Of a DNA stretch of 64,000 nucleotides, positions 498-60,900 are shown one piece after another. The stretch is from Candidatus Omnitrophota bacterium (GTDB taxonomy: Bacteria > Omnitrophota > Gorgyraeia > Zapsychrales > Zapsychraceae). The first letter of the stretch is position 1; every line of letters starts with the position of its first letter. The notes beneath the pieces were generated by a model. That model saw nothing but the letters and a program-made list of their open reading frames with translations. It did not search any database and had not been told where the DNA came from. A program made the translations under genes and the position numbers. The stretch is taken from the NCBI GenBank assembly GCA_015233115.1, contig JADFYJ010000006.1:65801-129800 (forward strand), given 5' to 3'.

Positions 498-1694
498 ATG
501 CATGAATCAATGATTGAAGAAGCAAAACAAAAATTTGGGGCTTTACTTTTGGACCAGTGCAAACGGGTAGAGAAGATGAAGCAGAATGCTGAAAAAGTTG
601 ATTTTTCTAAACTTAAACCTATTGTAATAGGGTCTTGCTGGGGAGATGGCATCGGGGAAGTTATTTCAAAATTAAGCCAGGAAGTTCTGACGTTTGTTTT
701 AAAGGATGATATGAAGGCCGGACGAGTGGTGATCAAGGATATCGCGGGCTTGACCATAGAGAACCGAGTCAAACACATGAAAGCAATTCCCGATGCTGTT
801 TTAGAAGAAATTAAGTCATGTCACGTTATTTTAAAAGGCCCGACGACTACACCGCAGGCCGGAGATCCCTGGCCTAACATCGAAAGCGCGAATGTCGCCA
901 TGCGCCGCGCTTTAGATTTATTTGCGAATGTCCGGCCGGTAAAAATTCCGCAAATGGGAATTGATTGGTGTTTTTTTCGGGAGAATACTGAAGGGGCATA
1001 CGTGCTGGGATCAAAAGGTTTTGATGTCACCGAAGATATCAGTGTCGATTTTACCGTAGCTACGGAGCAAGGTTCAGAACGGATCATTCGGATGGGATTT
1101 GAATACGCGCGGATGAACGGAAAGACGCAAATTACGATTGTGACCAAGTCAAATATAATTAAAACCACTGACGGCCGTTTTTCTAAAGTGGCCAAACGTA
1201 TAGCGCAAGAATATCCCGGAATCAAAATGGAAGAATGGTATGTGGATATTATGTCCGCGAAATTGATTGATCCGGAACGGCAAAAAGATTTCCAAGTGAT
1301 TATTCTGCCGAATTTATACGGCGATATTTTAACGGATGAAGCCGCGCAGATTCAAGGCGGAGTAGGGACAGCGGGAAGCGCCAATATTGGAAATCGGTGG
1401 TCCATGTTTGAAGCCATTCATGGCAGTGCGCCGCGCATGGTTAAAGAAGGCAGAGCCAAGTATGCTGACCCTTGTTCCATGATCCGCGCCAGCGCAATGT
1501 TGTTACGTCATATCGGATATATGGAGCAAGCGGAAAAAATTGAAATGGCTTTGGATGTGTGCGGTCAGTTTGAAAAGAACATGGTCATAACCGGGCGGGA
1601 TACCGGAGTGACGGGTAAAGAATTTACCGAGTATGTGTTGTCATGGATTAATAATCCGAAGTTGAAGCAAGCGTGGATGGATGGAATCGCGTAG
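498..1694 (+). CDS. Isocitrate/isopropylmalate dehydrogenase family protein (NAD(P)-dependent beta-decarboxylating dehydrogenase).
   Basis: GDGIGEV nucleotide-binding motif and NLYGDILTDEAAQIQGGVGTAGSANIG family signature. The N-terminal 30-40 aa may be over-called; an alternative start is M27. Confidence 0.75.
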   Translation: MHESMIEEAKQKFGALLLDQCKRVEKMKQNAEKVDFSKLKPIVIGSCWGDGIGEVISKLSQEVLTFVLKDDMKAGRVVIKDIAGLTIENRVKHMKAIPDAVLEEIKSCHVILKGPTTTPQAGDPWPNIESANVAMRRALDLFANVRPVKIPQMGIDWCFFRENTEGAYVLGSKGFDVTEDISVDFTVATEQGSERIIRMGFEYARMNGKTQITIVTKSNIIKTTDGRFSKVAKRIAQEYPGIKMEEWYVDIMSAKLIDPERQKDFQVIILPNLYGDILTDEAAQIQGGVGTAGSANIGNRWSMFEAIHGSAPRMVKEGRAKYADPCSMIRASAMLLRHIGYMEQAEKIEMALDVCGQFEKNMVITGRDTGVTGKEFTEYVLSWINNPKLKQAWMDGIA

Positions 1695-1972
1695 AGTGAC
1701 AAAGTAACCGAGTAACAGAGTAACAGAGAAAATGCGATTGATGGTAAAGCGATGATGGCACAGCAATAATAAAACTTTGTTATTTGTTTTAAAATTTTTT
1801 GAAAATATATTTTTTAGTTATACTCGTTTTATTAAATTATTTTTTGCAACGCCACGTTTATGCTTTGTTTTATAAATTTAACGTTTTTGTGCTGTCACAA
1901 TATTACGTTGTTGCTTTGTATTTCTGTTACGCTGTTGCTTTGTTACTCTGTTACTCGGTTACTCTGTTACTA
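1694..1972. repeat. Intergenic palindromic element, GTAACNGA arm subfamily. Forward arm 1694-1728, core AAAATGCGATTGATG, reverse arm about 1908-1970.
   Basis: Tandem GTAACCGA/GTAACAGA units and their reverse complement TCTGTTAC/TCGGTTAC. Fills the whole idh-lipB intergenic space. Confidence 0.8.
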
Positions 1973-2623: not shown

Positions 2624-2626
2624 AAC

Positions 2627-4317: not shown

Positions 4318-4334
4318 AATAATTTTTTAATACC

Positions 4335-6872: not shown

Positions 6873-6940
6873 GGTTTTTAGTTGTTGGTTGTTGAAAGTG
6901 TTTTTGTCCAAAAACCAAAAACTATAATCCATCAACCATG
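6873..6940. repeat. 68-bp GGTTGTTGG-subfamily repeat unit, near-copy of 4251-4317.
   Basis: GGTTTTTAGTTGTTGGTTGTTGAAAGTGTTTTTGTCCAAAAACCAAAAACTATAATCCATCAACCATG compared against 4251-4317. Confidence 0.8.
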
Positions 6941-6954
6941 AAAAGAGACAAGAC

Positions 6955-8245: not shown

Positions 8246-8508
8246 GAATTATTTCTCCTACCAGACAATTTGACCGTGATTTAAAAAAATTATTAAAACG
8301 CAAAAAAGAAATATCAAAATTAAAAGCTGTGGTTGATTTGCTTTCGGGTGAAGGCCGACTGCCTTTAAAATATAAACCGCATGCATTAGTCGGTGATTGG
8401 ATCCCGTGTTGGGATTGTCATATAGAACCAGATTGGCTATTAATTTATCAAGTGACTGAGACTCACGTGTATTTATTCCGAATCGGTAGTCATTCAGATT
8501 TGTTTTAA
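8242..8508 (+). CDS. RelE/YafQ-family type II toxin (mRNA interferase).
   Basis: 88 aa; C-terminal HVYLFRIGSHSDLF resembles YafQ/RelE; 4-bp overlap with the antitoxin. Confidence 0.7.
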   Translation: MRIISPTRQFDRDLKKLLKRKKEISKLKAVVDLLSGEGRLPLKYKPHALVGDWIPCWDCHIEPDWLLIYQVTETHVYLFRIGSHSDLF

Positions 8509-8581
8509 TATATAGGGACAGTCCGTATTTATTCAAAGTTGTGTGTTAAGGCAGGAAGCGTTGGCAGGGATAATAAAATAA

Positions 8582-14478: not shown

Positions 14479-14486
14479 AAATTTAA

Positions 14487-14663
14487 GTAACAAAGTAACC
14501 GAGTAACAGAGAAAAAACGATTGGTTGAAAAAACATTGGGGTAGAAAACTTATATCCGGGTTTAGTTAATTTTTTTGTTTGGGATTTTTTAATGACTGAG
14601 TTTTTGTTTTTTATGTTTTTTTGTTGCTTTGTTACTCGGTTACTTTGTTACTCGGTTACTTTT
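14487..14663. repeat. Intergenic palindromic element, GTAACNGA subfamily. Forward arm 14487-14511, core AAAAAACGATTGGTTG, reverse arm 14621-14663.
   Basis: Tandem GTAACAAA/GTAACCGA/GTAACAGA units with their inverse at the other end; ends 17 bp before the pfkA ATG. Confidence 0.8.
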
Positions 14664-15696: not shown

Positions 15697-15697
15697 A

Positions 15698-15912
15698 ATA
15701 GGTAATAGGCAATAGGCTAGAGGTGACGCTGTTGTAGGGGAGATCTCCTGATCTCCCGTTGCAAAATTATCGTTTTTTGGTTTTTATTTAAAAACGATTG
15801 ATGCGGGCGATCAGGAGATCGCCCCTACGAATAATTTTGTATGCGACCAAGGACGTAATTTAAAAAAGTTTTTTATTGGATTTTTTACCTATAGCCTATC
15901 GCCTATGACCTC
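15698..15912. repeat. Composite nested element. Outer ATAGGC-type inverted arms (15698-15724 / 15890-15912) enclose a GC-hairpin pair (15731-15758 / 15804-15829), core AAAAACGATTGATG and tail GCGACCAAGGACGTAAT.
   Basis: Read directly. Unit 1 carries compensatory changes (GGGAGATC...GATCTCCC) relative to the GGGCGATC...GATCGCCC unit. Confidence 0.8.
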
Positions 15913-18056: not shown

Positions 18057-18228
18057 CGTATGTGGTATGGGGCATGTAGTATGTAGTAAAAAACGATTGT
18101 GTGAAATGAAAAGGATAGAGAATATAATCTAAATACTTAATGTTTTTTGGGGTGATTAATTTTAAATTCTTTATTTTTTTATCAGTTGATTTTACTACAT
18201 ACGACATACTACGTACTACATACTTAGG
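18057..18228. repeat. Intergenic palindromic element, GTATGTRG subfamily. Forward arm 18057-18089, core AAAAAACGATTGTGTGAAATG, reverse arm 18191-18228.
   Basis: GTATGTGG/GTATGTAG tandem units and the inverse CTACATAC units; between tRNA-Gly and the M23 peptidase gene. Confidence 0.8.
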
Positions 18229-25479: not shown

Positions 25480-25695
25480 GTATGTGGTATGTGGTATGTC
25501 GTATGTGGTGAAAAAAGCGATTTGTGAAAAGTATTAATGGTGATTACTAGCAGGAAAAATTTTGGATGTTTATATTAAATAATATATTTTAGTAGATGTT
25601 TATTTTTTAGGTTTTTTTTTAATTTATTTTTTTATTGGTCATTTGCTTATCGGTTTTTGTTTTTGCTACATACGACATACCATATACCACATACG
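25480..25695. repeat. Intergenic palindromic element, GTATGTRG subfamily. Forward arm 25480-25510, core AAAAAAGCGATTTGTGAAAAG, reverse arm 25663-25695.
   Basis: Tandem GTATGTGG units and the inverse CTACATACGACATACCATATACCACATACG. Confidence 0.8.
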
Positions 25696-26384: not shown

Positions 26385-26645
26385 GTGTATACTTTGTTTA
26401 AGGAGGGAATAGTTATGTCGCAAGTGACAATATATTTACAAGATAATTTAATTTCTAAACTGAAAAAAAGAGCTCAACTAAAAAAAGAATCGTTATCAAA
26501 ATATATTACCAGTATTTTAGAAAAAAAAGAAATTGACGAATGGCCGGAAAAATATTTATCTTTATGCGGGAGTATCAAAGAGGATAACTTTGTCCGGGCT
26601 CATCAAGGCTCTTATGAACAGGATGTTACAAGGAAAGAAATGTGA
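26385..26645 (+). CDS. VapB-like antitoxin.
   Basis: 86 aa; stop overlaps the GTG start of the PIN-domain gene (ATGTGA). Confidence 0.55.
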   Translation: MYTLFKEGIVMSQVTIYLQDNLISKLKKRAQLKKESLSKYITSILEKKEIDEWPEKYLSLCGSIKEDNFVRAHQGSYEQDVTRKEM

Positions 26646-28988: not shown

Positions 28989-29240
28989 TTACTCGCCATA
29001 ATGCGTCTTAGCGCGTTCAATGTAAACAATTTTTGCTTTTTCATCTATCGAATAAACCAGACGGTCTTTTATGTTGAGGCGAAATGAATAACTTCCAAAG
29101 AGATCACCGATTAATTTTTTTCCAGAATACGGATCTAGGGCGATCAGATTAATGAGGATTTCTTTGAGTTTTAATTTAAGCTTCGGAGTGAGTTTTTCAA
29201 TGTCTTTTTTTGCTTGGTGAGTGATTTGGATACTGTACAT
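28989..29240 (-). CDS. RelE/ParE-family type II toxin.
   Basis: 83 aa; RelE/ParE-like YSFRLNIKDRLVYSIDEKAKIVYIERAKTH; translationally coupled to the upstream Phd/YefM gene. Confidence 0.7.
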   Translation of the reverse strand: MYSIQITHQAKKDIEKLTPKLKLKLKEILINLIALDPYSGKKLIGDLFGSYSFRLNIKDRLVYSIDEKAKIVYIERAKTHYGE

Positions 29241-29245
29241 GATAG

Positions 29246-29500
29246 CTAGTCTTTAAAAACATCATCCATTGAATAAACTTTGCCTTGTTTGATTTCTTTT
29301 TTCGCTTGCTGGACGCTTTTAAGAAGTCCCGGCTCTGATAACAATTCCAGGGTTTCCATTAAATCTTCATAATCATTTTCTGACAACAAAACCGCATTCC
29401 CGTCTTTAGATGTAATATGCACAGGATTATGCCCGTTTATGGATTTTTTTATCAATTCAAACCAATTATTTCGCGCGTAGGTCGCTGTAATTAAATTCAT
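29246..29500 (-). CDS. Phd/YefM-family antitoxin.
   Basis: 84 aa; N-terminal ITATYARNNWFELIKK...VHIT and C-terminal DYEDLMETLELL Phd/YefM pattern. Confidence 0.7.
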   Translation of the reverse strand: MNLITATYARNNWFELIKKSINGHNPVHITSKDGNAVLLSENDYEDLMETLELLSEPGLLKSVQQAKKEIKQGKVYSMDDVFKD

Positions 29501-29512
29501 AATTATAACCTC

Positions 29513-29538
29513 CTTATGTACATAATATAGTACATAAG
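29513..29538. promoter_or_regulatory. Inverted repeat CTTATGTACATAATATAGTACATAAG immediately upstream of the - strand phd/relE operon, a candidate operator.
   Basis: Near-perfect palindrome adjacent to the antitoxin start. Confidence 0.4.
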
Positions 29539-29608
29539 AGCTTTATTGTCAATGTGGGTCAGTATTTTTTAGTTTTTGGCTATATGCTACATGCCATATG
29601 CTATTTAA

Positions 29609-32710: not shown

Positions 32711-32755
32711 TTGACTTTGTTACTCTGTTGCAGGGTTACTTTGTTACTCTGTCAT
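32711..32755. repeat. Solo reverse-type GTAACNGA arm (TTGTTACTCTGTT...GGTTACTTTGTTACTCTGTCA) with no forward partner.
   Basis: Same 8-mer units as the arms at 1936-1970, 14621-14663, 35355-35394 and 43428-43467. Confidence 0.6.
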
Positions 32756-33278: not shown

Positions 33279-35264
33279 TTGAACGCTTTTAAATTAAAAA
33301 GTCCATTTAAACCAGTGACTGAACAATTGGATGCGGTTGAGCGATTGTATCAGGGCATGAAAAATGGTTCCAAAGCGCAAGTGCTTTTAGGTGTCACTGG
33401 TTCCGGGAAAACTTTTACTCTGGCGAATGTCATTGAACGCTTAAACCGTCCGACCTTAGTAATTTCCCACAATAAAACTTTAGCAGCCCAACTGTATTCT
33501 GAGTTTAAAGAATTTTTTCCTGAAAACGCGGTGGAATATTTCGTAAGCTATTACGATTATTATCAGCCTGAAGCGTATGTTCCCCAAACTGATTTGTATA
33601 TTGAAAAAGACGCGGCTATTAATGACCGGCTCGACCGTCTGCGTTTATCATCAACCACCAGTCTCATGACCCGCCGGGATGTGATCGTGGTGGCCAGCGT
33701 TTCATGCATTTATAATTTAGGTTCACCGGAAGATTACACTCAATATCTGCTGCAGATGAAGGTGGGTCAGGAAATTGATCGGGATGAAATGGTTCGTCAA
33801 TTAGTGGATATCCAATATGAACGTAATGACGTGGATTTTAGCCGCGGAAAAATCCGGGTGAGAGGGGACACTGTGGAAGTGTTTCCGGCTTATCGTCAGG
33901 ATGCGTTACGGATCAGGTTTTTCGGCGATGAAATAGAACGGATTAGCCAAATCGACCCTTTAACCGGCGACGAACAAGTCCGCTTAGACCAAGCCGCGGT
34001 TTATCCGGCCAAACATTTTATTATTTCTCATCCCCGTCTGGAAATAGCTTGTCTGCAGATTGAGAATGAAATGAAAGAACAAGTTGCCTTGCTGCAGAAA
34101 GACGGAAAATTGGTGGAAGCTCAGCGATTAGAGTCCCGGACCAGATATGATTTAGAAATGATGAGGAGTATTGGGTATTGTAATGGCATTGAAAATTACT
34201 CACGGGTTTTGTCTGAGCGGCCCCCAGGCAGTCGTCCGTCTTGTTTGATTGATTATTTTCCTAAGGATTTTATTACCTTGATTGATGAATCTCATGTGAC
34301 GGTCCCGCAATTAAATGGAATGTACGCGGGCGACAGGGCAAGGAAAGAAACTCTGGTTAGATACGGCTTTCGTTTACCGTCGTGTTTGGACAACCGGCCG
34401 CTTAAATTTACGGAATTTGAAAAAGTGGTGGATCAACGCATTTATGTGTCTGCCACGCCTAGCCCGTATGAGATTAAAGATGCCCAGGGCCAAGTCGTGG
34501 AACAGATTATCCGTCCGACCGGGATCGTTGACCCCATGATTGAAGTCCGCCCGACCACTGGCCAGATTGAGGATTTGTTAAAAGAAATTAACAGCCGCGC
34601 AGAGCGTAATGAACGCGTTTTAGTGACGACCTTAACCAAACGAATGTCTGAGGACTTAAGTGAATTTTTAGCGGATCGCGGCGTTAAAGTGAAATATCTG
34701 CATTCGGATATTCAAACCATAGACCGGACTAAAATTTTAAAAGATCTACGGTTGAAGAAATACGATTGTCTGGTGGGAGTGAATTTGTTAAGGGAAGGGC
34801 TTGATTTACCTGAGGTGTCTCTCGTCGCGATTTTGGATGCGGATAAGCAAGGTTTTTTACGTTCTGAAACCTCTTTGATTCAGACTTCAGGCCGCGCCGC
34901 GCGTAATGTGAACGGCATTGTCATCATGTACGCGGATACAGTCAGCCAGGCTATGGCCAAGACTATTTTTGAATGCCAGCGTCGAAGAAAAATTCAGCTG
35001 GCGTTTAACATGGAGCATCATATTACACCAACCACCATTATTAGAGCTTTGAGTGAAGGGATTGAAAGTTTGGCCGTTGAAGAGGGTGACGAAGTGCTAC
35101 TTGACGCAGTAGGCCAAAGTGAGGCAGAATATAACCTTAGTTCTTATATCAGTGAACTTGAAGCAGACATGGAACAGGCCGCGCGAAATTTACATTTCGA
35201 AAAAGCCGCGCAAATAAGGGATAAGATTGAAGAAGTAAAAAAAAGTAACCGAGTAACAGAGTAA
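33279..35264 (+). CDS. uvrB: Excinuclease ABC subunit B.
   Basis: GVTGSGKTF Walker A, helicase motifs, beta-hairpin region, C-terminal UVR domain (LHFEKAAQIRDKIEE). The last 6 codons (SNRVTE) lie inside the repeat arm. Confidence 0.95.
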   Translation: MNAFKLKSPFKPVTEQLDAVERLYQGMKNGSKAQVLLGVTGSGKTFTLANVIERLNRPTLVISHNKTLAAQLYSEFKEFFPENAVEYFVSYYDYYQPEAYVPQTDLYIEKDAAINDRLDRLRLSSTTSLMTRRDVIVVASVSCIYNLGSPEDYTQYLLQMKVGQEIDRDEMVRQLVDIQYERNDVDFSRGKIRVRGDTVEVFPAYRQDALRIRFFGDEIERISQIDPLTGDEQVRLDQAAVYPAKHFIISHPRLEIACLQIENEMKEQVALLQKDGKLVEAQRLESRTRYDLEMMRSIGYCNGIENYSRVLSERPPGSRPSCLIDYFPKDFITLIDESHVTVPQLNGMYAGDRARKETLVRYGFRLPSCLDNRPLKFTEFEKVVDQRIYVSATPSPYEIKDAQGQVVEQIIRPTGIVDPMIEVRPTTGQIEDLLKEINSRAERNERVLVTTLTKRMSEDLSEFLADRGVKVKYLHSDIQTIDRTKILKDLRLKKYDCLVGVNLLREGLDLPEVSLVAILDADKQGFLRSETSLIQTSGRAARNVNGIVIMYADTVSQAMAKTIFECQRRRKIQLAFNMEHHITPTTIIRALSEGIESLAVEEGDEVLLDAVGQSEAEYNLSSYISELEADMEQAARNLHFEKAAQIRDKIEEVKKSNRVTE

Positions 35265-35394
35265 CAGAGCAAAAGCGATTGCTGGAAAAAACGATAGGCG
35301 ATATAAAATAATTTTTTTGAGGTTTTGTTTAGAGATTTTATATAATTTTTTTGTTTTTACTTTGTTACTCTGTCACTTGGTTACTTTGTTACTA
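35244..35394. repeat. Intergenic palindromic element, GTAACNGA subfamily. Forward arm 35244-35269 overlaps the uvrB 3' end; core CAAAAGCGATTGCTGG; reverse arm 35355-35394.
   Basis: AGTAACCGAGTAACAGAGTAACAGAG versus AGTAACAAAGTAACCAAGTGACAGAGTAACAAAG (reverse complement). Confidence 0.8.
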
Positions 35395-35426
35395 TTTAAA
35401 CCTTTCAGGCAAGATCGGATAATAAT

Positions 35427-36197
35427 ATGTTACTAGGGATTGATATTGGAAATACCTCGATTTCATTCGGGGTAATGAGAAAAGGAAAGGTGGTTGACAA
35501 TTTCTCCATCCTTTCCAAACAAACCAAAACTGCTTTGGCTTCATCATTGGACAAGGTTTTATCCCGGATCCATAAACAATATCCCTTGATTACCCAATGT
35601 TTGATGTGCAGTGTTGTGCCCAAAATTAATTCCATTGTTATCCGCTATGTTCAAGGAATTGTGGATATTAATGTGGAACGAATTGGGAAAGATATTATCG
35701 TGCCTATTGCCAATCATTATCATGAGCCTTCACAAGTTGGGCAAGACCGTTTGCTGGTAGCTTATGCCGCGAAATGTTTATATGGGACCCCTACTGTGGT
35801 CATTGATTTAGGTACAGCCATAACTTTTGATGTGGTTTCGAAAAAAGGAACTTACGAGGGAGGAATGATTGTGCCCGGTATCCGCTTGTCAGCCGAATCG
35901 CTTTTTAAAGGAACAGCTTTACTTCCGCAATTAAAAGAATTTACCAAGCCTAAACATTTGATTGGCAAAAACACTAAAGACAGTATTTTGAGTGGTTTGT
36001 TCAACGGTTATTCCGCCATGTGCGACGGGTTAATAAAACAATTTCAGGAAATATTGGGACCCAAAACCAAGGTTATCCTTACCGGCGGTTACGCGCCATT
36101 AATCCGCAAAGGTTTGCCTCCGTATTGTGTGTATGATCAGGATTTGGTGTTTAGGGGCATGAGTATGCTAGTCTTCGGTATGAAATGTTTTAGTTGA
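35427..36197 (+). CDS. coaX: Type III pantothenate kinase.
   Basis: MLLGIDIGNTSISFGV N-terminal ASKHA motif; 256 aa. Confidence 0.8.
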   Translation: MLLGIDIGNTSISFGVMRKGKVVDNFSILSKQTKTALASSLDKVLSRIHKQYPLITQCLMCSVVPKINSIVIRYVQGIVDINVERIGKDIIVPIANHYHEPSQVGQDRLLVAYAAKCLYGTPTVVIDLGTAITFDVVSKKGTYEGGMIVPGIRLSAESLFKGTALLPQLKEFTKPKHLIGKNTKDSILSGLFNGYSAMCDGLIKQFQEILGPKTKVILTGGYAPLIRKGLPPYCVYDQDLVFRGMSMLVFGMKCFS

Positions 36198-36246
36198 CAA
36201 ATTCATTTTTTTTGGTAAATTAGCACTCTGGCGAAAGTAGTGCTAA
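36194..36246 (+). promoter_or_regulatory. groESL promoter region with a CIRCE operator TTAGCACTC-N9-TAGTGCTAA (36220-36246) downstream of a TTGACA -35 box (36194-36199).
   Basis: CIRCE consensus TTAGCACTC-N9-GAGTGCTAA matched with one mismatch; 54 bp upstream of groES. Confidence 0.7.
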
Positions 36247-36299
36247 TAACGTATTTTTATACATTTTTCGTTTAATTCCATAAATCAAGGAGGAGGAGC

Positions 36300-36593: not shown

Positions 36594-36617
36594 TAAATAG
36601 GGGAACATGATGTTTTA

Positions 36618-36702
36618 TTGTTGATGGTTGATAGTTTTTGGTTTTTGGAAAAAACGGATGATTTCAACAGCAAAATCAACAACCAACAACCAAAAACCGA
36701 CA
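36618..36702. repeat. Intergenic palindromic element, GGTTGTTGG subfamily. Forward TTGTTGATGGTTGATAGTTTTTGGTTTTTGG, core AAAAAACGGATGATTTC, reverse AACAACCAACAACCAAAAACC.
   Basis: Lies between groES and groEL. Confidence 0.75.
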
Positions 36703-41107: not shown

Positions 41108-41114
41108 TGAAACA

Positions 41115-41279
41115 GTATGTGGTATGTGGCATGTAGTATGTAGTATGTAGTATGTAGTATGTAGGGAAAAGCGATTGGTGTGAAATGCTATGGAGAACTC
41201 AGCTCTTCCTGTATAAAAATTTTTTTTATATTTTTTAATTTTTTTACTACATACGACATACTACGAACTACATACTATC
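41115..41279. repeat. Intergenic palindromic element, GTATGTRG subfamily. Forward arm 41115-41164 with 6 or more tandem TATGTAG units, core GGAAAAGCGATTGGTGTGAAATG, reverse arm 41240-41279.
   Basis: Read directly. Confidence 0.85.
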
Positions 41280-41305: not shown

Positions 41306-43036
41306 ATGGTAAAAAAACAAGTGAAAAAAGAACAAAAAAAACAGGCAGTCGCAGCGAAAAAGCAAGTGATGAAACCCGCACAAGTCATGAAACCGGCTAA
41401 ACGTAAAGGCCTTTTTAGATCTGGCCATCATGCTGGACTTGGATCTAAGGTCAAGGTCAAAGGTTTTGGACTTTCTGTCCGGGTTAAAAAACAGAAAAGC
41501 AAAGATCTGATCATTGTGCTTGATTTTGGTTCTCAATATACTCAGCTGATTGCCCGGCGTATCCGCGAAGCTAAAGTATACAGCAAGATTGTTCCTTACA
41601 CTATTACGGTAGATGAAATAAAAGAGATGCAGCCGAAAGGGATTATTTTGTCCGGCGGGCCGATGAGCGTTTATGATCAAGGCGCGCCTATTCCTCAAAA
41701 AGGGTTATTCGAATTAGGCATTCCGGTTTTGGGTATTTGTTACGGGATGCAGGTGATTAGTCATATATTCGGTGGAAAAGTTCAGGGAAGTAAAGAACGC
41801 GAATTTGGACGCGCGGAGTTATTTGTGGATAGTAATTTAGATTTGTTCGCGAATCTACCGACGAACATGACCTGCTGGATGAGTCACAGCGATGAAATCA
41901 AGGTTATGCCAAAAGGTTTCATGAAGATTGCCCATACTCTGAACGCGGAAGTCGCGGCGATTGCTAACCGGAGTAAGAAAATATATGGGGTACAGTTTCA
42001 TCCGGAAGTTATTCACACGCAGCGCGGCGCTCAGATATTGAGCAACTTCGCGAATAGTATTTGTGGATGTTTACCTCGTTGGACCATGGATAAATTTATT
42101 GATAATGCTATCCGTTTGATTAAAGAACAGGTTAAAGATGGCAAAGTGGTGTTGGGTTTAAGCGGCGGAGTTGATTCATCCGTGGCTGCGATTTTACTTC
42201 ATAAAGCCATAGGGAACCGTTTGTATTGCATTTTTGTTGATAACGGTCTTTTGCGTAAAGATGAAGCGTCTAAAGTTCAAAAAACTTTTAAGACTAACTT
42301 TAACATGAACATGAGCACAGTGAACGCTGAAACCAATTTCTTGAAGCGGTTGAAAGGCGTGACTGATCCGGAAGAAAAACGTAAAATTATTGGCGATGAA
42401 TTTATCAATGTGTTCACGGAAAAAGCCAATAAGATTAAGAATGTAAAATTTTTAGCTCAAGGCACATTATATCCTGACGTGATCGAATCCATATCACCCA
42501 AAGGCGGGCCTTCAGCTGTGATCAAGTCGCATCACAATGTGGGCGGGCTTCCTAAGTCTTTGAAAATGGAATTGATTGAGCCTTTTAGAGAATTGTTTAA
42601 AGATGAAGTGCGAATTATCGGCAAACATTTGGCTATGCCGGATACAGTGTTGAACCGTCAGCCATTCCCAGGACCTGGATTAGGAATACGTATTTTGGGC
42701 GAGGTTACGCGCGAACGTTTGGAGATTTTGCGCGAAGCCGATGAACGGGTGGTGGAAGAGATTAAAAAAGCTGGTTTATATAATCAAGTATGGCAGTCAT
42801 TCGCGGTATTGCTTCCGGTCAAGACTGTTGGAGTCATGGGTGACCAGCGTACATATGAAAATGTCATCGCGATCCGCTGCGTGACTAGTATTGACGGCAT
42901 GACAGCTGACTGGGCGCAAATTCCTTATGAAGTGTTAGGAAAAATATCCAATCGCATTATCAATGAAGTCAAAGGCGTGAATCGTGTCGTATATGACATT
43001 AGCTCGAAACCGCCGGCAACGATTGAGTGGGAATAG
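41306..43036 (+). CDS. guaA: GMP synthase (glutamine-hydrolysing) with a Lys-rich N-terminal extension of about 65 aa.
   Basis: GATase (GICYGMQ), ATP-PPase SGGVDSSV, C-terminal dimerisation domain. SD GAGG before the ATG at 41306; the canonical GuaA start ([12 protein letters not shown]) is about 70 aa in. Confidence 0.9.
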
Positions 43037-43042
43037 GAAAAA

Positions 43043-43467
43043 GTAACCGAGTAACCGAGTAACAGAGTGACAAAGAAAAAACGATTAATGCTAAAAACGT
43101 CTATGGGAAAAAGGTTACAAGATATAGGCAAAAAAATATATTTGGATGATAGAAAACAAGCAATAGGAAAAATTGTATTTAATTTGTTAATTTTGTGATT
43201 TTGGTTTAAATTTTATATAAGATTATTAATTATTTATATTATTGTTTTTATCGGTTGTTTTGGGTTTTTATGGTTGCTATAATTTTTAAATTTTATTTTA
43301 GGTTTGTAAGGCTATTTTTTTAATTTTTGGGTTATTGATAACCTTTCACTTTGTTGCTTTTTGAGGGGATTTTTGTAATTTTTTAAAGCTTTATTTTTTT
43401 TTGTTTTTTTAAAGTTTTATTATAAATTTTGCTCTGTTACTCGGTTACTCGGTTACTTTGTTACTCT
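43043..43467. repeat. Intergenic palindromic element, GTAACNGA subfamily, with a long (about 350 bp) AT-rich spacer. Forward arm 43043-43075, core AAAAAACGATTAATGC, reverse arm 43428-43467.
   Basis: GTAACCGAGTAACCGAGTAACAGAGTGACAAAG versus its inverse. Occupies the entire guaA-dnaE intergenic region. Confidence 0.8.
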
Positions 43468-43489
43468 TTTACGAGCTGCCCATTTTAAT

Positions 43490-46981: not shown

Positions 46982-47254
46982 ATGACGAAAAAAGATATAG
47001 TTTTGAAGATTACCGACATGACTGGCATCAAACAAGTTGATGTTAAAAAAATTGTTCAAAAGACATTTGATGTTATCATTGAGAGTTTAATGCGGAATGA
47101 AAAGGTTGAGTTGCGTAATTTTGGGGTTTTTAAGATCAAAGAACGCCGTGCCCGTTTTGGCCGGAATCCGCGGACAGGGGACAGTGTTCCGGTTCCTCCC
47201 CGTAAAGTAGTAGTTTTTAAGCCCGGCCTTGAAATGAAACAAAAAATAAAATAA
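46982..47254 (+). CDS. HU/IHF-family DNA-binding protein.
   Basis: MTKKDIVLKITD...RNPRTGDSVPVPPRKVVVFKPG, the HU arm motif. ATG at 46982 with SD preferred over the TTG at 46964. Confidence 0.85.
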   Translation: MTKKDIVLKITDMTGIKQVDVKKIVQKTFDVIIESLMRNEKVELRNFGVFKIKERRARFGRNPRTGDSVPVPPRKVVVFKPGLEMKQKIK

Positions 47255-47289
47255 TTAAAAATTTAGTTTTTATTAAAAATAAATTCTAA

Positions 47290-47320: not shown

Positions 47321-47390
47321 TAAACAACCACAAATTTACAAAATTTCAATCCAAAAACCAACAACCAAAAACCATTAACCAATCAAAATT
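47321..47390. repeat. Solo reverse-type GGTTGTTGG-subfamily arm (CCAAAAACCAACAACCAAAAACC...).
   Basis: Matches the right arms of 4184-4317, 6873-6940 and 36618-36702. Confidence 0.55.
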
Positions 47391-48707: not shown

Positions 48708-48718
48708 GTGAACGTCGC

Positions 48719-48757
48719 TGTTGTAGGGGCGATCTCCTGATCGCCCGAACCATAAAA
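48719..48757. repeat. Solo GC-hairpin unit GTTGTAGGGGCGATCTCCTGATCGCCCGAACCATAAAAG.
   Basis: About 90% identical to 271-308, including the ATAAAAG tail; begins 12 bp after the hisS stop. Confidence 0.75.
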
Positions 48758-53211: not shown

Positions 53212-53270
53212 CAACGTGCGCCGTTCGCGGGAGCTCACGGCACTACTCGGACATTGCGTCCTCGGTCGCA

Positions 53271-53345
53271 GAGTAACCGAGTAACAGAGTAACAGAGTCT
53301 AATCAAAAAAAAGCAAAACGCGATAAGCAATAAAATAAAAAATTG
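53271..53345. repeat. Forward-type GTAACNGA arm (GAGTAACCGAGTAACAGAGTAACAGAGT) plus an A-rich core, with no reverse partner.
   Basis: Same units as the other GTAACNGA-subfamily forward arms; preceded by a GC-rich stretch containing CGCGGGAGCTC. Confidence 0.6.
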
Positions 53346-54963: not shown

Positions 54964-57900
54964 ATGTTTAAGCGTGTCCTTAGTTTAATTTTAAGTATTA
55001 CTTTTATATTTTCCGCGTTTGCGCCCTATGCCAATGCGGTCGAACCGCTTTTTGCCGCACCCGCGGTCATGCCATTACTTGCACCGGCCAACATAGAAGT
55101 GCCTTTGCTGAAAGGATTGCGGATCGATCCGGCTTCTCCTTTAAAAATAGATTTCATTTTGGAGGCAGGGAAATCTGAACAAAATGCCAATTATTTAAAA
55201 ATTGAATCTAACCGTTTAATTAAATATTTCCTCGCCGGATTAACTGTCCCAGCTAATGAACTTTGGGTCAACTTAAATCCTAAAGAGCCAAACCGCATCA
55301 CGAGTGAAAAATTCGGCCAAACCGAAATGGGCCGCGACCTCTTAGCCCAGGATTACGTCCTCAAACAATTAAGCGCGAGTCTGCTAAACCCGGACAATGA
55401 AACCGGCCGAAAATTCTGGGATGGTGTGTATAAAAATGTTTCCTCTCCCCTCCGGGGAGAGGGCAGGGTGAGGGGTTTAGATATCCCCATTGGAATTTTA
55501 AGCAAAGTCTGGATCGTCCCAGGTGAAGCTGTAGTGGTCGAAAAAGAGAATGCGGCGTATGTCAAAAGCGCAAAATTAAAAGTGTTATTTGAGGGGGCGG
55601 AGAATACTCAATTAATCAAACAGTTAATTCTTCCCGCCATTGAAAAACAAGTCAACGAAGGCTCCGAATTCTCCCTGCTTCGTCAAATATATCATTCTTT
55701 GATTTTGGCAACATGGATGAAACGTAAAATTGGATTATTACAAAAAAATTATATTAACCAAAACAAAATCTCCGGCATCGACGTTGCCGACAAACAAGCC
55801 AAACAAAAAATTTACGCCCAATATCTCAAAGCCTTTACGGATGGCCTGCATAAATTTATTAAAGAAGAATACGACCCCCAAACCCGGCAGATCGTAGCCC
55901 GTCAATATTTCACCGGAGGAGCAGGATTTGAAAATTTAGACTCAGCCATGGTGGTCAACACTATGCAGGGACCTGTGGTTGCTCAATTTGAAAAACCGTA
56001 TGAAGTTGACGTAGATTTGAAACCGCAAAATTCTGTTGCCATTGATCAGGCCGCATTAGCCGGAACTTTAAAAATGGGGAAAGGGATAAAAGGGTTTTTA
56101 GACCGGGTTTTTGTTGCAGAGGAAGATAAGGAAAAAAAAGAGCGGACGCGCGTGTTAATTGAAAGTTTTTTAAACTCCGATTTTGAGCCAGCAGTCAAAA
56201 TGTTTGAAGAAATAAATCAATTAAGCAATGACAAAAAAATTATTTTAGCCCGCCAGTTATTGAAAACCGCGCCTGGCGCGTTAGCAGAAAATTTAACCTT
56301 AGAGCAATTTTTAATGTTAAAACCGAATGATAATAATGCGTCTTTCTTTCATATTTTTGGACGCTTTATTCTGGCCTTTCATTCTGAGTACAAAGCTGAA
56401 TACCTGAAAATGTATCAAGGTAATCCTTTAGTTTTAAATAATGATATCACCCGTTGGAAAACAGTTTACGCGCTTCTTTGGGCGGCGGAAATTTTAGGCT
56501 CAGACCAAGCCCTGCTGGCGCGTCAAAATATGGACGATATATCGCGCGATTTAATCAATAAACATCAAGCCTTAAGTGACGATGAAATAGCAGCTTTTGA
56601 AAAGGAACTGCCGAATTTTAATTGGCGAATGGCAACTGATGTGCCTTGGGAAGAAGTCATCAGGTCGCCTTCACTACAACCATATGGCCCTACGGATGAT
56701 GAACAATCAGTGCGGCGGTGGGGTTCAATTTATAATCAACAAAATTATTGGAATAATAATGTTGTGGTCCGCAGATATTTTTTGTTTTTAGTCAGAGATA
56801 TGATTCTTAATCCGGAATTTTTTACCCATGATTACGTTCAGCGGATATCGCAGATGCATTCGGCCCTGCGAAGAGCACGCGGTCTTTATGCCTCTGATTC
56901 AGGGCATGATGATGGTTTGCAAACAGGAATTTTAAATTCAACGTCAGAACAAAATAAAAAATTATTCTTAAGCTTAAAAGAATTATTGCAAGAACATAAT
57001 GGCGTTAACAAAAATCTATCTAAAGAAATATCTCAAATTGCAGGATATTATTTGGCTCTTTTACAAGGCTATCTATTCGGTCCTGGACGGGGTAACAACT
57101 CGCTTTACATGAATATGGTGAATGCTCTGATACGGCTCAATAGCTTAAATGGGATAAGTCACGAAAACCTTGATATGGTAATTGCCCTTGTGCATAACAA
57201 ACCAGAAAAATTTCTTTATCCGCGTTTCTTGTCCGAGCTTAAAAAAAGAAATCCGGAAAATAAAGCAGCCCAAAATTTATCCATCAAAGATATTCTGCCT
57301 GAATCAGATCAAGCGATGGTGCGGGATTCTAGAGATCAAGAACGCCTGGCAAAAAGAAAAAATTTATTCAGGACTTTTGATCTGGAAGGCATGCCTCCTG
57401 AAGAAATGCCGCCAGAATTGTTTGAAAACATTAAAGAGCCTTTAACCGCCAAGCAAAAAGAAAACTTAAAGAAGCAATTAGCCGATCATTTCATGATTTG
57501 GGGCTTAGAATCATTTCTTACCATGGAACACCAGGATGAAAGAGTCCTGCAATTTGCGCAAAAACAAGGCTTTAAAATAAATAAAGCATTTTTAGAGCAA
57601 GTTATTAGGGAAATGTTCGCTGAAAAAGAAAAATATTTTACGGCCAAAGTGGTAGAGATCGGAACATCCAACGCAATAAATACAGATCGTGCCTCTTTAG
57701 CCACCACAACTTCAAACGATATTAATCAAGACGACTCATGGGCAGAGAGGTTCGCTTCTTATAGGCATAAAAGAATTATTGTAGCTGATGATCACGCGGA
57801 TTTTCGTCAGGATATGCAGGGAATTTTGTCTAGATATTTTAACAAAGTGACTATAGCTTCATCCATCAACGAAGTAATGGAAGAGTACGCGGCGATGAAA

Positions 57901-60900
57901 GCGGATCAGGTGGCTGATGATGATATTTTAATTTTGATAGATTTTCAGTTTGCAGAGGGACACAATGCGTTTGAATTGGTCAATCAACTGCGCGTTGAAC
58001 GGAATTTTACCGGTAAAATCGGCATTGTTTCCGGCAGTATGGTGTCAGAACTTAATATTCCGGGGTACGATCCTGTTCATCAGGATTTGAATAATGAGGT
58101 CAAGATACGTTATGGTTTGGATTATATTCAGAAACAGCCTGCCGGATTTAAAGATAATTTGTTTGGTTTAATGGATAGGCAATTTAAACAAAAGCCTTAC
58201 CAAAAGCCAGAGGGTTTGGAGCCGTTGGTTGTAGACCATGAACTACATGGAGTTCATGGCCGTGAACCCAGCGTGGTTCACGGTTCTAATTTGGGGTATT
58301 TTTTAAGCGGCATCAATGATAGGGAAATGCATATTGGGGAAGAGTTAGAGAAATCTCTTAATGAAGTGTCTTTGGGGCAGTCTTTAAATACTGGCGCAGT
58401 GCAAAGTTTAATTGAAGAAATCAAAACAGGTATTAAATTTTCGAATGTGCGTCAAGGATTTAATGGATCAGTTGATTCCTATGCTTTTCGTCAAAGTCTC
58501 CACGATCATAAAAATAATATCGCAAGGCTAGGCAGTAAAATTGAAGACCTTCAAGGGCAAATAACAGCTGAGTCGAATGCTGCTCTGGATTCAGTATTAT
58601 CCCGTATTCATGATATGGTAAACGTGTATTTTAATTATACGGATTGGGTCTACCGCATGTTGATTTATTGCGGCCGCCTTGAGTATATTGAGATGATGGA
58701 GCCGCTGCTGCAGTCTGCCATTGTGTCTTACCAAAAAGAATTCGAACGTCGTCATTCCAATCAATTCGATCCTGACGAAGGGATTGCTCAGGCTCTTAAT
58801 CATTTGAAAAACACCAGCGCGGAATTCCGTGGTCAGCACATCGAACCTGCCATGAAATCGTGGGGGATATTATTTAAGGAATATCAGGCTGTCGAAGAAG
58901 GCATGAATAAAATTTTGGGCGATAAAATGAGTTCAAACCAAAACGCGTTTTTAAAATCATTTTCTGACAAATTAAATTTATTTTTCGGCCAATATCTCGT
59001 TACATTCGGAGCCAATGATTTGAATGGCGATTTGCCAGGTAAAGCACTAGGCAGGGTCGTGGTTTTAAGCGGCGATTCATGGGAGGCCGAACAATTTTTT
59101 AAAGATAAGGTTCAGGAAAGCGATATTGTGGTTGTTCGTCAGGATTATTCATGGATTACAGCGGCACGCAGTAAAGCCTCTGCCATTATTTTTGCTCAAT
59201 CCGGCGGTCAGCATATTATCACTCAAGCTCGGATATCAGGAATTCCATTGATATTTTTGCCCAACGCGGATGAGTTTTTTGAGGCAGTTAGGAAAGAGTA
59301 CGAAAGACAGGGAAAGAACAAAGATATTTTTGTAAGAGTAGAAGTTGAAGATGGAAAAGGACGGATTATTCCGGTCAATGAAGTAGGAGAAAAAGTAAAC
59401 CCAATTGACTCTTTACAGGAAATTCAAAAAGTAGAGGTTGATAAGGTCGATGGTTACTCTGGCCCGGATATCATCAGTTCAGAGAGTCCTCTTGATGATT
59501 ACGCGGATACCATGGAAGAATTGCGACCCTGGATGGGAACTAAAGCGCTAAATCAATACATCGTAAAAAAAGACAAAATTTCCGACGTACCGCAGTTTTT
59601 GATGCAAACCTTCCGATTAATGGAACGGTGTTTTAAATTTTCCGACAAATATTATGAAATATTAGATAAGATCCGCGGTTTTTCCGACACATCTTCAAGA
59701 CATGAAGTGGAAACAGTTTTAAAGGAAATGCAAGATTATATTTTCTCTCAGTCGCTCAATGAATTGGATGAAATGTTTTATAAGGCCAGAGCCATTGAAT
59801 GGATTTTTGAAAATCCCTTGGCTATTCGTCTGATTACTAATGATCAGGATTTGGAAAAATATCCCGGTGTGGGCGCGGGGACGTATCTATCACTCGAAAA
59901 TATCCGGGTGAAAAATGTGCAAGAATTAAAGCCCTATTTAAAAGAAGTTTACGCGTCTATGTGGAGTTATGAAGCGTATAAACAGCGGCTGGACCGCGGC
60001 ATCCCTCAGGATGCGGTTTACGGCGCGATTGAAATTCAAGAATATAAATCTGACGCGATATATTCTATGCACATTGAGACGCAAGTTGAAGGCAATCCGG
60101 ATATTTTAAAAATTATGTTTATGCCCGGAGCTGCCCGGTCTATTTCTGCCAAAGATCCACAGTATGGTGGAGAACCGTTTATTTTTTATTTTGATAAAAA
60201 AGCGCAAAATGGAAAAGGCGGATTGATTGGCTGGAGCGATCCCCGAACGCAATATCATCCGGTTAAGGCAGAAAAGGCATATTACGCGTCTTTCGAAAAT
60301 AAAGATCCTCAAAGTTTTAATATTAACAATTATCCTGAACTCAGGATCATGTTTAAATCAAAAAATATGAATGTCAGGCCTTTTATCAACCAATTTGAAG
60401 ATGCTGCCCGCAAGGCGATGAAAATGGAAAAACGTTTTCAATCTCCGCGTGAAATAGAGGCTACTTTAGACTTAACTGGATTTTCTGCCCATCAATGCCG
60501 GAGAATGAAAGTCGTGGGGCCTATTGATATTTCAGCTATTCCTGCAAATGCAGAACAAGATGTGGAATTTTTGGAAAGGGTGATTAGCGAATTAAAGCAA
60601 CGCTCTCCGGAAATCGGTGAATTTATTGAAAAACATGGGGTAAAAGAATTTGATCCGCGAATTGTTTCTGGCGAAGAACTGGAAGAGGTATTACAGGGCT
60701 TACGCATTTTAGATCGATCAAATACTTTAAAAACCCCTTGGGTTTTTTCAATGCTTTTAATTACGGCTGCAGGTGGATCGGAAAGAAAGTTTGATCAGGA
60801 TGCGACGAGAATACTTAAGCTTTTACAAAATAAAGAGTTTGATAGTGTGCGTGGCTCGCTAATGTTTTTGATGGCCTATTTTGTTTTTGGCGGGCATGAA

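What the first reader, a model, noticed from the sequence alone, without database searches (positions are those of the whole stretch)
35244..35269. The repeat arm supplies the last six codons and the stop of uvrB
The forward GTAACNGA arm (AGTAACCGAGTAACAGAG) is read in frame as ...S-N-R-V-T-E-stop at the end of uvrB. This follows the conserved UVR domain (LHFEKAAQIRDKIEEVKK). The element therefore inserted into, or expanded across, the 3' end of an essential gene and now provides its C-terminus and terminator context. At 1692-1694 and 43034-43036 the arm starts exactly at the upstream stop codon.
Basis: seen in the sequence. Interest (0 to 1): 0.5.

Follow-up and report, generated by a model that had tools for sequence, protein, structure and literature searches.

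The report
Intergenic repeat hairpin caps uvrB
In this uncultured Omnitrophota bacterium a dispersed hairpin-forming repeat, built from tandem 8-base units, fills the uvrB–coaX gene junction, and its first arm encodes a meaningless six-residue tail and the stop codon of UvrB; repeats are already known to do this to genes, though this repeat family looks undescribed.

Summary
uvrB (33279-35264) has no stop before the repeat. Codons 656-661 (SNRVTE) and the TAA lie in a 3.2-unit array of AGTAACNG (35244-35269), directly after the UVR motif (residues 622-655). None of about 200 UvrB homologues has this tail. In the closest relative (86% identity) uvrB and coaX overlap by ATGA with no repeat. Homology to that relative breaks at 35238 and resumes at 35439, so about 175 nt were gained here.

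The element is an inverted pair of 8-mer arrays around an AT-rich loop. There are four full and two half copies in the window, all intergenic. Because the unit holds TAA and 8 is not a multiple of 3, an arm stops every frame after 0, 3 or 6 codons; uvrB sits in the 6-codon frame.

Other intergenic regions carry the same architecture with 7-mer units, and they share a loop core (GAAAAAACGATTG). Other Omnitrophota have different array hairpins at the same junction, one again supplying uvrB's last codons.

The tail is most likely an incidental by-product. "Essential gene" and "terminator context" are not supported. What the element does (RNA hairpin or mobile DNA) is unresolved. Repeats that extend gene ends and intergenic heptamer arrays are both known, so interest is modest.

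The parts
33279..35264 (+). uvrB coding sequence (661 aa plus TAA), full length with all UvrB domains
   Evidence: ORF list. Pfam hits to ResIII, UvrB_inter, Helicase_C, UvrB and UVR. Identical to database protein P0001, annotated as UvrB of a Candidatus Omnitrophica MAG.
35142..35243 (+). UVR motif of UvrB (residues 622-655), the last ancestral part of the protein
   Evidence: Pfam PF02151, residues 622-655, profile positions 2-35 of 36. blastn homology to the closest relative L201 runs up to 35238.
35244..35269 (+). Left (forward) arm: 3.2 tandem units of AGTAACNG. Codons 656-661 (SNRVTE) are at 35244-35261 and the TAA stop is at 35262-35264.
   Evidence: A stop is reached in all three frames after 0, 3 or 6 codons.
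35269..35303 (+). Loop-proximal conserved core (GCAAAAGCGATTGCTGGAAAAAACGATAGG). It is shared with elements that have other arm units.
   Evidence: Pattern search: ten + strand copies, all next to left arms. Alignment A1. The nhmmer profile matches only in this window.
35304..35354 (+). AT/T-rich loop with a sigma-70-like site (TTGAGG-18-TATAAT, 35317-35346) just before the right arm
   Evidence: Promoter scan, 10 of 12 matches. This is a consensus match only; function is not shown.
35355..35394 (+). Right (reverse) arm: about 4.6 units of TNNGTTAC, complementary to the left arm
   Evidence: the repeat finder I1, 86% complementary. TRF array at 35357-35393. The RNA fold pairs the two arms, z = -5.5.
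35395..35426 (+). 32-nt spacer between the right arm and the coaX start. It has no counterpart in the closest relative and no clear Shine-Dalgarno sequence.
35427..36197 (+). coaX (type III pantothenate kinase), the downstream gene. In four relatives it overlaps uvrB.
   Evidence: Pfam Pan_kinase. Synteny in L201 and L204-L207.
1693..1971 (+). Full GTAAC element between an isocitrate/isopropylmalate dehydrogenase-family gene and lipB. The left arm abuts the TAG at 1692-1694.
14485..14662 (+). Full GTAAC element between an unannotated ORF and pfk
43042..43472 (+). Full GTAAC element with a 360-nt loop, between guaA and dnaE
32714..32752 (+). Half element (right arm only) upstream of a lipoprotein gene. 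In relative L201 the two flanking genes overlap (TAATG).
53269..53298 (+). Half element (left arm plus a degenerate core) upstream of ybeY

Best explanation
A dispersed, genome-specific intergenic element was gained at the uvrB-coaX junction after this lineage split from its closest sampled relative. The element has two inverted arrays of the 8-bp unit GTAACNNA around an AT-rich loop, with a conserved core next to the left arm.

Ancestrally the two genes overlapped or abutted, so there was no spare intergenic DNA. The new DNA starts at the codon after the UVR motif and replaced the old stop. uvrB therefore reads into the left arm.

The unit contains TAA, and 8 is not a multiple of 3. Three units therefore place a stop in every frame. 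In the uvrB frame this happens after six codons, giving SNRVTE*. The tail is an incidental and probably neutral by-product, appended to a part of UvrB that varies freely in length and sequence.

Shown: the overlap, the uniqueness of the tail, the filled versus empty site, the all-frame stops and the multi-copy family.

Inferred: the direction of change (a gain), the neutrality of the tail, and the working mode of the element. The most likely mode is that, on a read-through uvrB-coaX transcript, the two arms pair into a long stem of about 30 bp. That stem would uncouple the two cistrons, acting as a double-strand RNase processing or stability site. Ribosomes finishing uvrB would have to melt the stem, and a promoter-like site in the loop could serve coaX.
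For: **Overlap and array.**

**Non-random family.** 21 hits against 0.01 expected. All copies lie in intergenic junctions of same-strand housekeeping genes.

**Unique tail.**
- 0 of 80 and 0 of 119 homologues have it.
- UvrB tails after the UVR motif range from 3 to about 45 residues.

**Empty sites in relatives.**
- L201 (86% identity): ATGA overlap and no repeat.
- L204, L205 and L207: overlaps. L206: a plain 32-nt spacer.
- Homology breakpoints at 35238 and 35439.
- A second junction (rluA/lipoprotein) is filled here and overlapping in L201.

**Stops in all frames.** After 0, 3 or 6 codons in each of the five GTAAC left arms.

**Independent parallels.**
- In L059 a different heptamer-array hairpin (GTAAAGC) at the same junction also encodes uvrB's last codons and its TAA.
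- In L002 the groES stop TAG lies in the first unit of an ATAGCG array hairpin.
- In this window the lipB stop TGA is the first triplet of the TGAAAGG array.

**Hairpin potential.** RNA folds pair the arms, with z = -5.5 and -4.7 and 0 of 200 shuffles as stable.

**Literature.**
- Small repeats extending the 3' ends of genes is a documented phenomenon (PMC3184786).
- A transcribed heptamer-repeat hairpin processed by RNase III is documented in H. influenzae (PMC12721329).
Against: **Direction of change.** It rests on parsimony over eight relatives of 64-86% UvrB identity. Two of them (L202, L059) also have an array hairpin at this junction, with unrelated units. An old hairpin with fast arm turnover, lost in several lineages, is therefore not excluded.

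**Mode of gain.** No target-site duplication or mobilising gene was found, so how the DNA was gained is unknown.

**RNA-level function.** This is not established.
- G:T exceeds A:C mismatches between arms in the window (22:8).
- The ratio is reversed in relatives' hairpins (6:18).
- The strand test is therefore inconclusive.
- There are no expression data.

**Promoter.** The site in the loop is only a consensus match in AT-rich DNA.

**Left boundary.** It is uncertain by about 8 nt, because the A-run encoding K654-K655 also pairs with the far flank.
Confidence: 0.72

Rival explanations
1. The element is a non-autonomous transposon (MITE-like). Its terminal inverted repeats happen to be tandem 8-mers. 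It is moved in trans by a transposase encoded elsewhere in the genome. The uvrB tail is simply what is left after an insertion into the stop/start overlap. Any RNA hairpin is a side effect.
For: - Multiple dispersed copies share arms and a loop-proximal core.
- Filled versus empty sites exist in the closest relative, at two junctions.
- Half copies look like decayed elements.
- The size is 150-430 bp.
- The order of unit variants is mirrored between the two arms of a copy: CCG-CCG-CAG appears in both arms of the 43042 copy.
Against: - No consistent target-site duplication is seen at the four full copies (flanks read).
- The number of arm units differs between copies.
- Elements with entirely different arm units (7-mers) carry the same core, which simple copy-and-paste of one master does not predict.
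- Loops are far more diverged than arms (alignment A1, mean column identity 29%).
- No transposase was seen next to any copy.
- Only 64 kb of the genome was available.
Confidence: 0.3
2. There was no insertion event. The arrays arose and grow locally by replication slippage of short seeds in intergenic DNA, as proposed for bacterial heptamer simple repeats. The left array expanded upstream until it overran the original uvrB stop.
For: - Unit number varies between copies (3 to 7) and units are imperfect.
- Heptamer repeats are known to be over-represented in bacterial intergenic regions and have been ascribed to polymerase slippage (PMC4692102).
- Different lineages have different units at the same junction.
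Against: - Slippage alone does not create a matching inverted array 80-370 nt away.
- It does not create the shared non-repetitive core.
- It does not place the same unit at six separate loci.
- The closest relative has no intergenic DNA at this junction in which an array could have been seeded.

Slippage probably does modulate unit number once an element is present.
Confidence: 0.12
3. The arrays are binding sites on double-stranded DNA for a sequence-specific protein (a regulator, a nucleoid protein or a recombinase). The protein would bracket promoter-containing intergenic regions, and the overlap with uvrB would be tolerated because the site must sit at the edge of the region.
For: - Short units are repeated in both orientations and flank AT-rich, promoter-like DNA.
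- A conserved core of two about 16-nt direct repeats lies next to the left arm (listing).
- An HU/IHF-like ORF lies in the window at about 46985-47255 (read; not tested).
Against: - At least five unrelated unit sequences are used in the same architecture in one genome. That would need as many proteins, or none.
- An 8-bp or 7-bp period places successive sites on different faces of the helix.
- No candidate protein was tested.
Confidence: 0.08

Closest known systems
Small dispersed repeats fused in frame to gene ends (ERIC-like repeats in Enterobacteriaceae, RUP/BOX in S. pneumoniae, BRE in Bordetella, Anabaena MITEs; review by Delihas 2011, PMC3184786)
   Same: A multi-copy intergenic hairpin repeat overlaps a chromosomal ORF and extends or replaces its 3' end, giving a lineage-specific C-terminal tail.
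   Different: Here the arms are tandem 8-mers rather than a unique inverted-repeat sequence. The stop is guaranteed in every frame by the unit's TAA and by its length not being a multiple of 3.
Intergenic heptamer simple-sequence repeats: cyanobacterial STRR (Calothrix/Nostoc) and GGGAATC / GGGGAYT repeats of Xanthomonas and Nostoc (Rehm et al. 2015, PMC4692102)
   Same: Tandem 7-nt units are strongly enriched in intergenic regions, vary in length between close relatives, and some occur as inverted pairs able to form stem-loops. The window also has many 7-mer arrays.
   Different: - The uvrB element uses an 8-mer that is not G-rich, so it has no quadruplex potential.
- The arrays come almost always as inverted pairs hugging the stop and start codons.
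- Elements with different units share a conserved loop core.
- The host phylum is Omnitrophota. No paper on this was found.
hmw1A 5'-UTR heptamer-repeat hairpin of Haemophilus influenzae (Rapun-Araiz et al. 2025, PMC12721329)
   Same: A tandem 7-nt repeat is transcribed and forms one arm of a long RNA hairpin. RNase III cuts that hairpin, which controls expression. This is the best mechanistic analogue for what the arms could do on a read-through mRNA.
   Different: There only one arm is repetitive and the locus is a single phase-variable adhesin gene. Here both arms are arrays, the element is dispersed among housekeeping genes, and no processing data exist.
REP/BIME and REPIN elements (Bertels & Rainey 2011, PMC3116915, listed; details from memory)
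   Same: Abundant extragenic inverted repeats just downstream of stop codons, forming hairpins on mRNA. REPINs are inverted doublets separated by a spacer and behave as non-autonomous mobile DNA.
   Different: REPs are GC-rich imperfect palindromes of 20-40 nt mobilised by RAYT transposases. Here the arms are AT-rich tandem arrays, the loops reach 360 nt, and no RAYT was looked for or seen.
Correia/NEMIS elements of Neisseria (from memory; listed as a MITE in PMC3184786)
   Same: Hairpin-forming elements of 100-160 bp inserted between genes. They are co-transcribed, cut by RNase III, and can carry promoter-like sequences.
   Different: Correia elements have unique 26-bp terminal repeats and a TA target duplication. 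Neither is present here.

Membership tests
MITE (miniature inverted-repeat transposable element) | Terminal inverted repeats | tested here: met
   Arms of 36 nt, 86% complementary. They are tandem 8-mers rather than a unique sequence.
MITE (miniature inverted-repeat transposable element) | Direct target-site duplication flanking each copy | tested here: not met
   The flanks of the four full copies share no consistent duplication (sequences). Only the 14485 copy shows TTTA on both sides.
MITE (miniature inverted-repeat transposable element) | Filled versus empty orthologous sites in close relatives | tested here: met
   The uvrB/coaX and rluA/lipoprotein junctions are empty (overlapping genes) in L201.
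MITE (miniature inverted-repeat transposable element) | A parent IS element or transposase with matching ends | not testable with these tools
   Only 64 kb of the genome is held, and the 149-kb source contig could not be fetched.
Intergenic heptamer SSR / STRR-type repeats | Head-to-tail copies of a 7-nt unit confined to intergenic DNA | tested here: not met
   The uvrB element has an 8-nt unit (TRF period 8). Sister elements in the same window do have 7-nt units. The architecture is shared but this copy departs in unit length.
Intergenic heptamer SSR / STRR-type repeats | Length and sequence variation between close relatives at the same junction | tested here: met
   The same junction carries GTAACNGA here, GTGGTCT in L202, GTAAAGC in L059 and nothing in L201.
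REP / REPIN | GC-rich imperfect palindrome of 20-40 nt as the basic unit, with an associated RAYT gene | tested here: not met
   The arms are AT-rich arrays. The RAYT gene was not testable. A separate GC-rich palindrome family does exist in the window (15720-15830 and 48715-48750).
Intrinsic (Rho-independent) terminator | Compact GC-rich stem-loop followed by a U-run | tested here: not met
   0 terminator-like sites in 35100-35500. The stem is AT-rich and the loop is 80 nt.
Any curated RNA family (Rfam 15) | Score at or above the family's gathering threshold | tested here: not met
   Only a tRNA passes in the window. On the element, only sub-threshold plant miRNA-precursor models match (26 bits against a 211-bit threshold), which reflects a generic long hairpin.
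Rickettsia palindromic element-type in-frame insertions | Element inserted inside a coding region and translated through as an internal peptide segment | tested here: not met
   The arm terminates translation after 6 codons. Nothing downstream of it is in frame with uvrB.

The most novel reading that the evidence does not exclude
The GTAAC element is one face of an undescribed, lineage-restricted system in Omnitrophota. Gene junctions are colonised by hairpin modules whose arms are tandem 7- or 8-nt units. These unit lengths are never a multiple of 3, and many units contain a stop triplet, so translation is stopped in every frame from either side. Modules with unrelated arm sequences share one loop core.

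This would imply a dedicated generating or homing mechanism. One possibility is a small mobile core that targets hairpin loops. Another is templated synthesis of matched arrays. Either would differ from ordinary slippage or classical transposition. The modules would act as built-in insulators that split formerly coupled cistrons.
Probability: 0.15. Interest if true: 0.65.

Novelty: new variant of a known kind. Interest (0 to 1): 0.35.

Why it matters
For UvrB itself the consequence is probably nil. The six extra residues follow an intact UVR motif, in a region that varies from 3 to about 45 residues among relatives.

The case is useful as a clean filled-versus-empty-site example. A dispersed repeat splits a translationally coupled gene pair, rewrites a protein's C-terminus and supplies a new stop. 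This matters for annotating MAGs, where such tails and stop codons are repeat-derived.

More broadly, the window shows that some Omnitrophota pack many of their intergenic regions with array-armed hairpins. Their units differ between lineages, while their architecture and, within this genome, their loop core are constant. If these act on mRNA as processing, stability or uncoupling sites, they would be a main layer of operon organisation in a phylum with no genetics. If they are mobile, their lack of target duplications and their interchangeable arms would point to an unusual mechanism.

Tried and rejected
1. **Genome-collection scan with UvrB.** It returned only relatives of 66% identity or less, none with the repeat. 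It was useful as a negative control but too distant to show the direction of change. Closer relatives came from the protein search and from contig look-ups.

2. **Metagenome scan for GTAACNNAGTAACNNAGTAAC.** The 120 hits span GC contents of 17-68% and are mostly unrelated tandem repeats. No contig shares other sequence with the window. It gave no information on relatives of this genome. It did show similar inverted-array architectures elsewhere (L088, L148, L156, L169).

3. **Viral-contig scan.** Nearly all inspected hits fall in one family of about 45-kb phage contigs that carry a conserved GGTAACCGAGTAACCGAGTAACCC site in a different context. These were rejected as unrelated.

4. **Strand test for an RNA-level stem.**
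   - In the window, + strand folds are more stable and G:T exceeds A:C mismatches 22:8.
   - In the hairpins of relatives the ratio is 6:18.
   - Pooled, the counts are 28:26, so the test does not discriminate.

5. **Core profile (nhmmer) against all fetched loci.** It matched only the window, so the core cannot be traced outside this genome.

6. **Possible link to four-helix-bundle ('23S rRNA intervening sequence') genes.** Such a gene lies between GTAAC-type arrays in metagenome locus L127, and near an array in L096 and L101. No such gene is in the window (best tblastn E = 2.3), so the lead was dropped for this element.

7. **Look-up of the window's own contig through P0001.** Not on record.

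8. **Tails of P0015 (SNKMLDN) and P0009 (QENRVPV), which looked faintly similar.** P0015's DNA has no array and a toxin-antitoxin pair sits at the junction.

9. **Literature searches for tandem-heptamer hairpins and for Omnitrophota repeats.** No description of this family was found.
Full report
**1. The observation**

The + strand ORF 33279..35264 encodes a 661-residue UvrB that ends ...NLHFEKAAQIRDKIEEVKKSNRVTE*. The DNA from 35244 reads AGT AAC CGA GTA ACA GAG TAA. Tandem Repeats Finder reports an 8-bp array at exactly 35244-35269, with 3.2 copies of AGTAACAG. An inverted array lies at 35355-35394: arms of 36 nt, 86% complementary, 80 nt apart.

Pfam places the UVR motif at residues 622-655, profile positions 2-35 of 36. 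The repeat-encoded residues 656-661 therefore begin at the first codon after the motif.

The repeat is not a chance feature. GTAACNNAGTAAC occurs 21 times in the window against 0.01 expected. With one mismatch allowed it occurs 31 times against 0.67 expected.

It is off by 5 nt for 43034-43036.

**2. Anatomy of the element**

The window holds four full copies: 1693-1971, 14485-14662, 35244-35394 and 43042-43472. It also holds two half copies: a right arm only at 32714-32752, and a left arm only at 53269-53298.

Every copy lies between two + strand housekeeping genes. The pairs are a dehydrogenase gene and lipB, an unknown ORF and pfk, rluA-like and a lipoprotein gene, uvrB and coaX, guaA and dnaE, and a 7TM-HD gene and ybeY.

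The layout is constant:
- The forward array starts 0-7 nt after the upstream stop. In uvrB it starts 21 nt before the stop.
- A conserved core follows, GAAAAAACGATTGnTGGAAAAAAC.
- Next comes an AT/T-rich loop of 80-360 nt.
- The reverse array ends 7-32 nt before the next start codon.

RNA folding pairs the two arms into a stem of about 30 bp. For the uvrB copy the MFE is -58.5 kcal/mol with z = -5.5. For the 14485 copy z = -4.7. None of 200 shuffles folded as well in either case.

No intrinsic terminator is predicted. One good sigma-70-like site (TTGAGG-18-TATAAT, 35317-35346) sits in the loop just before the right arm. No Rfam family matches.

**3. Why the tail is six residues**

The unit contains TAA and is 8 nt long. 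Successive units therefore shift the frame, and any frame meets TAA within three units. In each of the five GTAAC left arms the three frames stop after 0, 3 and 6 codons. uvrB happens to enter in the 6-codon frame.

This also makes the conclusion robust to a miscount of the A8 run at 35237-35244. In every frame the first stop is inside the arm.

**4.

The organism is a Candidatus Omnitrophota MAG.

None of 80 UvrB loci from species-representative genomes carries the repeat or the tail. None of the 119 closest database homologues (70-86% identity) ends in SNRVTE. The stretch after KIKEIK varies from 3 to about 45 residues.

The closest relative is L201 (GCA_015233195.1, 86% UvrB identity). It has the same gene order, but uvrB and coaX overlap by ATGA and there is no GTAAC repeat in 13.8 kb. 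blastn homology between the window and L201 stops at 35238 and resumes at 35439. That is 200 nt here against 25 nt there.

Other relatives give this picture:
- Three relatives at 75-76% identity (L204, L205, L207) have overlapping genes.
- L206 has a plain 32-nt spacer.
- L208 has a toxin-antitoxin pair inserted at the junction.

A second junction, rluA-like/lipoprotein, is filled by a half element here and is a TAATG overlap in L201.

The parsimonious reading is a gain of about 175 nt in this lineage, at a junction that had no spare DNA. The old stop was lost and the arm supplies the new one.

**5. The wider context changes what the element is**

TRF shows that many other intergenic regions of the window are bracketed in the same way, but by 7-nt units:
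- GTATGTR / ACATAC, at three loci
- TTGNTGG / CCANCAA
- AATAGGC / GCCTAT
- GTGAAAG / TTTCAC

Several of these carry the same core next to the left arm. There are ten + strand copies of the core and all are intergenic. A profile of the core finds nothing outside this genome.

Inverted 7-8-mer array pairs were found in 4 of the 8 Omnitrophota loci included in the array-pair scan and in none of the roughly 75 loci from other phyla. The five Omnitrophota loci fetched later were run through TRF alone and show no 7-8-nt arrays. Units differ in each genome.

Two relatives have their own array hairpins at the uvrB-coaX junction:
- L202 has GTGGTCT units, and the TGA stop abuts the array.
- L059 has GTAAAGC units, and the last uvrB codons (…LKLKA) and the TAA lie in the array. 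The coaX ATG abuts the other arm.

In L002 the groES stop TAG is in the first unit of an ATAGCG array hairpin before groEL. In this window the lipB stop TGA is the first triplet of the TGAAAGG array.

Repeat arms supplying stops and short tails is thus recurrent in this group.

**6. How it works**

Shown: the gain, the overlap, the all-frame stops and the pairing potential.

Inferred: on a read-through mRNA the arms form a long duplex between the cistrons. That would replace translational coupling by a structured spacer. Such a spacer is a plausible substrate for a double-strand-specific RNase or a stability element. Ribosomes terminating inside the left arm would have to melt it. The loop may carry a promoter for coaX.

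I tried to test RNA-level selection by mismatch asymmetry. In the window G:T exceeds A:C by 22:8 and + strand folds are more stable. In relatives' hairpins the ratio is 6:18. The test is inconclusive.

For a DNA-level (MITE-like) origin:
- Copies are dispersed.
- Filled and empty sites exist.
- The order of unit variants is mirrored in the two arms.

Against a DNA-level origin:
- There is no target-site duplication.
- Unit numbers vary between copies.
- The same core occurs with unrelated arms.

Pure slippage cannot explain the matched inverted arrays or the shared core.

**7. Relation to known things**

Small repeats that fuse with ORFs and extend their 3' ends are documented for several families (PMC3184786). 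Intergenic heptamer repeats, some in inverted pairs and variable between close relatives, are documented in Xanthomonas and Nostoc, and in Calothrix (PMC4692102). A transcribed heptamer-repeat hairpin processed by RNase III controls hmw1A in H. influenzae (PMC12721329).

The present element differs in four ways:
- It has an 8-nt unit.
- It is strictly paired and codon-hugging.
- Elements with different arm sequences share a core.
- Its host phylum is Omnitrophota.

I found no description of it.

It fails defining tests for a MITE (no target duplication), REP/REPIN, an intrinsic terminator, any Rfam family, and RPE-type in-frame insertions.

**8. Verdict**

The claims of 'terminator context', 'essential gene' and 'starts exactly at the stop' for 43034 are not.

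The tail itself is most likely a neutral by-product. The event type is known. The element family is a new variant of intergenic array or hairpin repeats, and its function and mode of spread are unresolved.

Noticed in passing
window 2621-2770; 4187-4318; 6873-6945; 15697-15906; 18058-18224; 25480-25694; 36608-36702; 41114-41277; 47351-47382: Many other intergenic regions are bracketed by inverted arrays of 7-nt units (TGAAAGG, TTGNTGG, AATAGGC, GTATGTR and others). Several carry the same GAAAAAACGATTG core as the GTAAC elements. The arms differ while the core is shared.
   Followed up: partly
window 15720-15750, 15800-15830 and 48715-48750: A separate GC-rich palindromic repeat (GTAGGGGCGATCTCCTGATCGCCC, a REP-like hairpin) occurs inside the 15697 element, once in each orientation, and again after the gene ending at 48707.
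   Followed up: no
window 36225-36251; L201 12724-12886; L202 12850-13085: A CIRCE-type inverted repeat (TTAGCACTC-N9-tAGTGCTAA, one mismatch in the right half), the HrcA operator, lies upstream of groES here. Similar inverted repeats (imperfect in L202) lie in the coaX-groES spacers printed for two relatives.
   Followed up: no
window 53212-53271: A 60-nt GC-rich stretch lies between the stop of the 7TM-HD gene and the left-arm-only GTAAC array, which is unusual for this AT-rich intergenic DNA. It could be a remnant of a displaced coding end. The ybeY start region (53343 onward) contains one GTTACT unit that may be a decayed right arm.
   Followed up: no
window 29579-29604 (- strand genes): In the only minus-strand gene block, a heptamer array (ATAGCAT-type when read on the - strand) follows a - strand stop codon directly and is followed by AAAAAC. 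This hints that element orientation tracks transcription direction. No right arm was found. A near-consensus promoter (TTGACA-17-TATATT) and a palindromic operator follow on the - strand.
   Followed up: partly
L127 1747-2300; also L096 1720-2052 and L101 2081-2562: In unrelated metagenome contigs, GTAAC-type arrays flank (L127) or lie within about 200 nt of (L096, L101) genes for four-helix-bundle proteins of the '23S rRNA intervening sequence protein' type. L127 has two tandem copies. A fourth contig, L094, has such a gene about 1.4 kb from the array. No such gene is in the window.
   Followed up: partly
L208 4781-5439: In another Omnitrophota relative, a PhdYeFM/PIN toxin-antitoxin pair is inserted at the same uvrB-coaX junction. 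This junction seems to accept insertions repeatedly.
   Followed up: no
L209-L288 (viral contigs): A family of about 45-kb viral contigs, mostly from one sample, carries a conserved GGTAACCGAGTAACCGAGTAACCC site with further GTAACCG copies upstream. It is possibly a protein-binding iteron and is unrelated to the window.
   Followed up: partly
window 7988-8560, 26410-26640, 28990-29600: Small ORFs in the long 'intergenic' gaps look like toxin-antitoxin pairs (RelB/RelE-like by eye). An HU/IHF-like ORF lies at about 46985-47255, and a 2696-aa giant ORF at 54964-63054. None was run against a family library.
   Followed up: no
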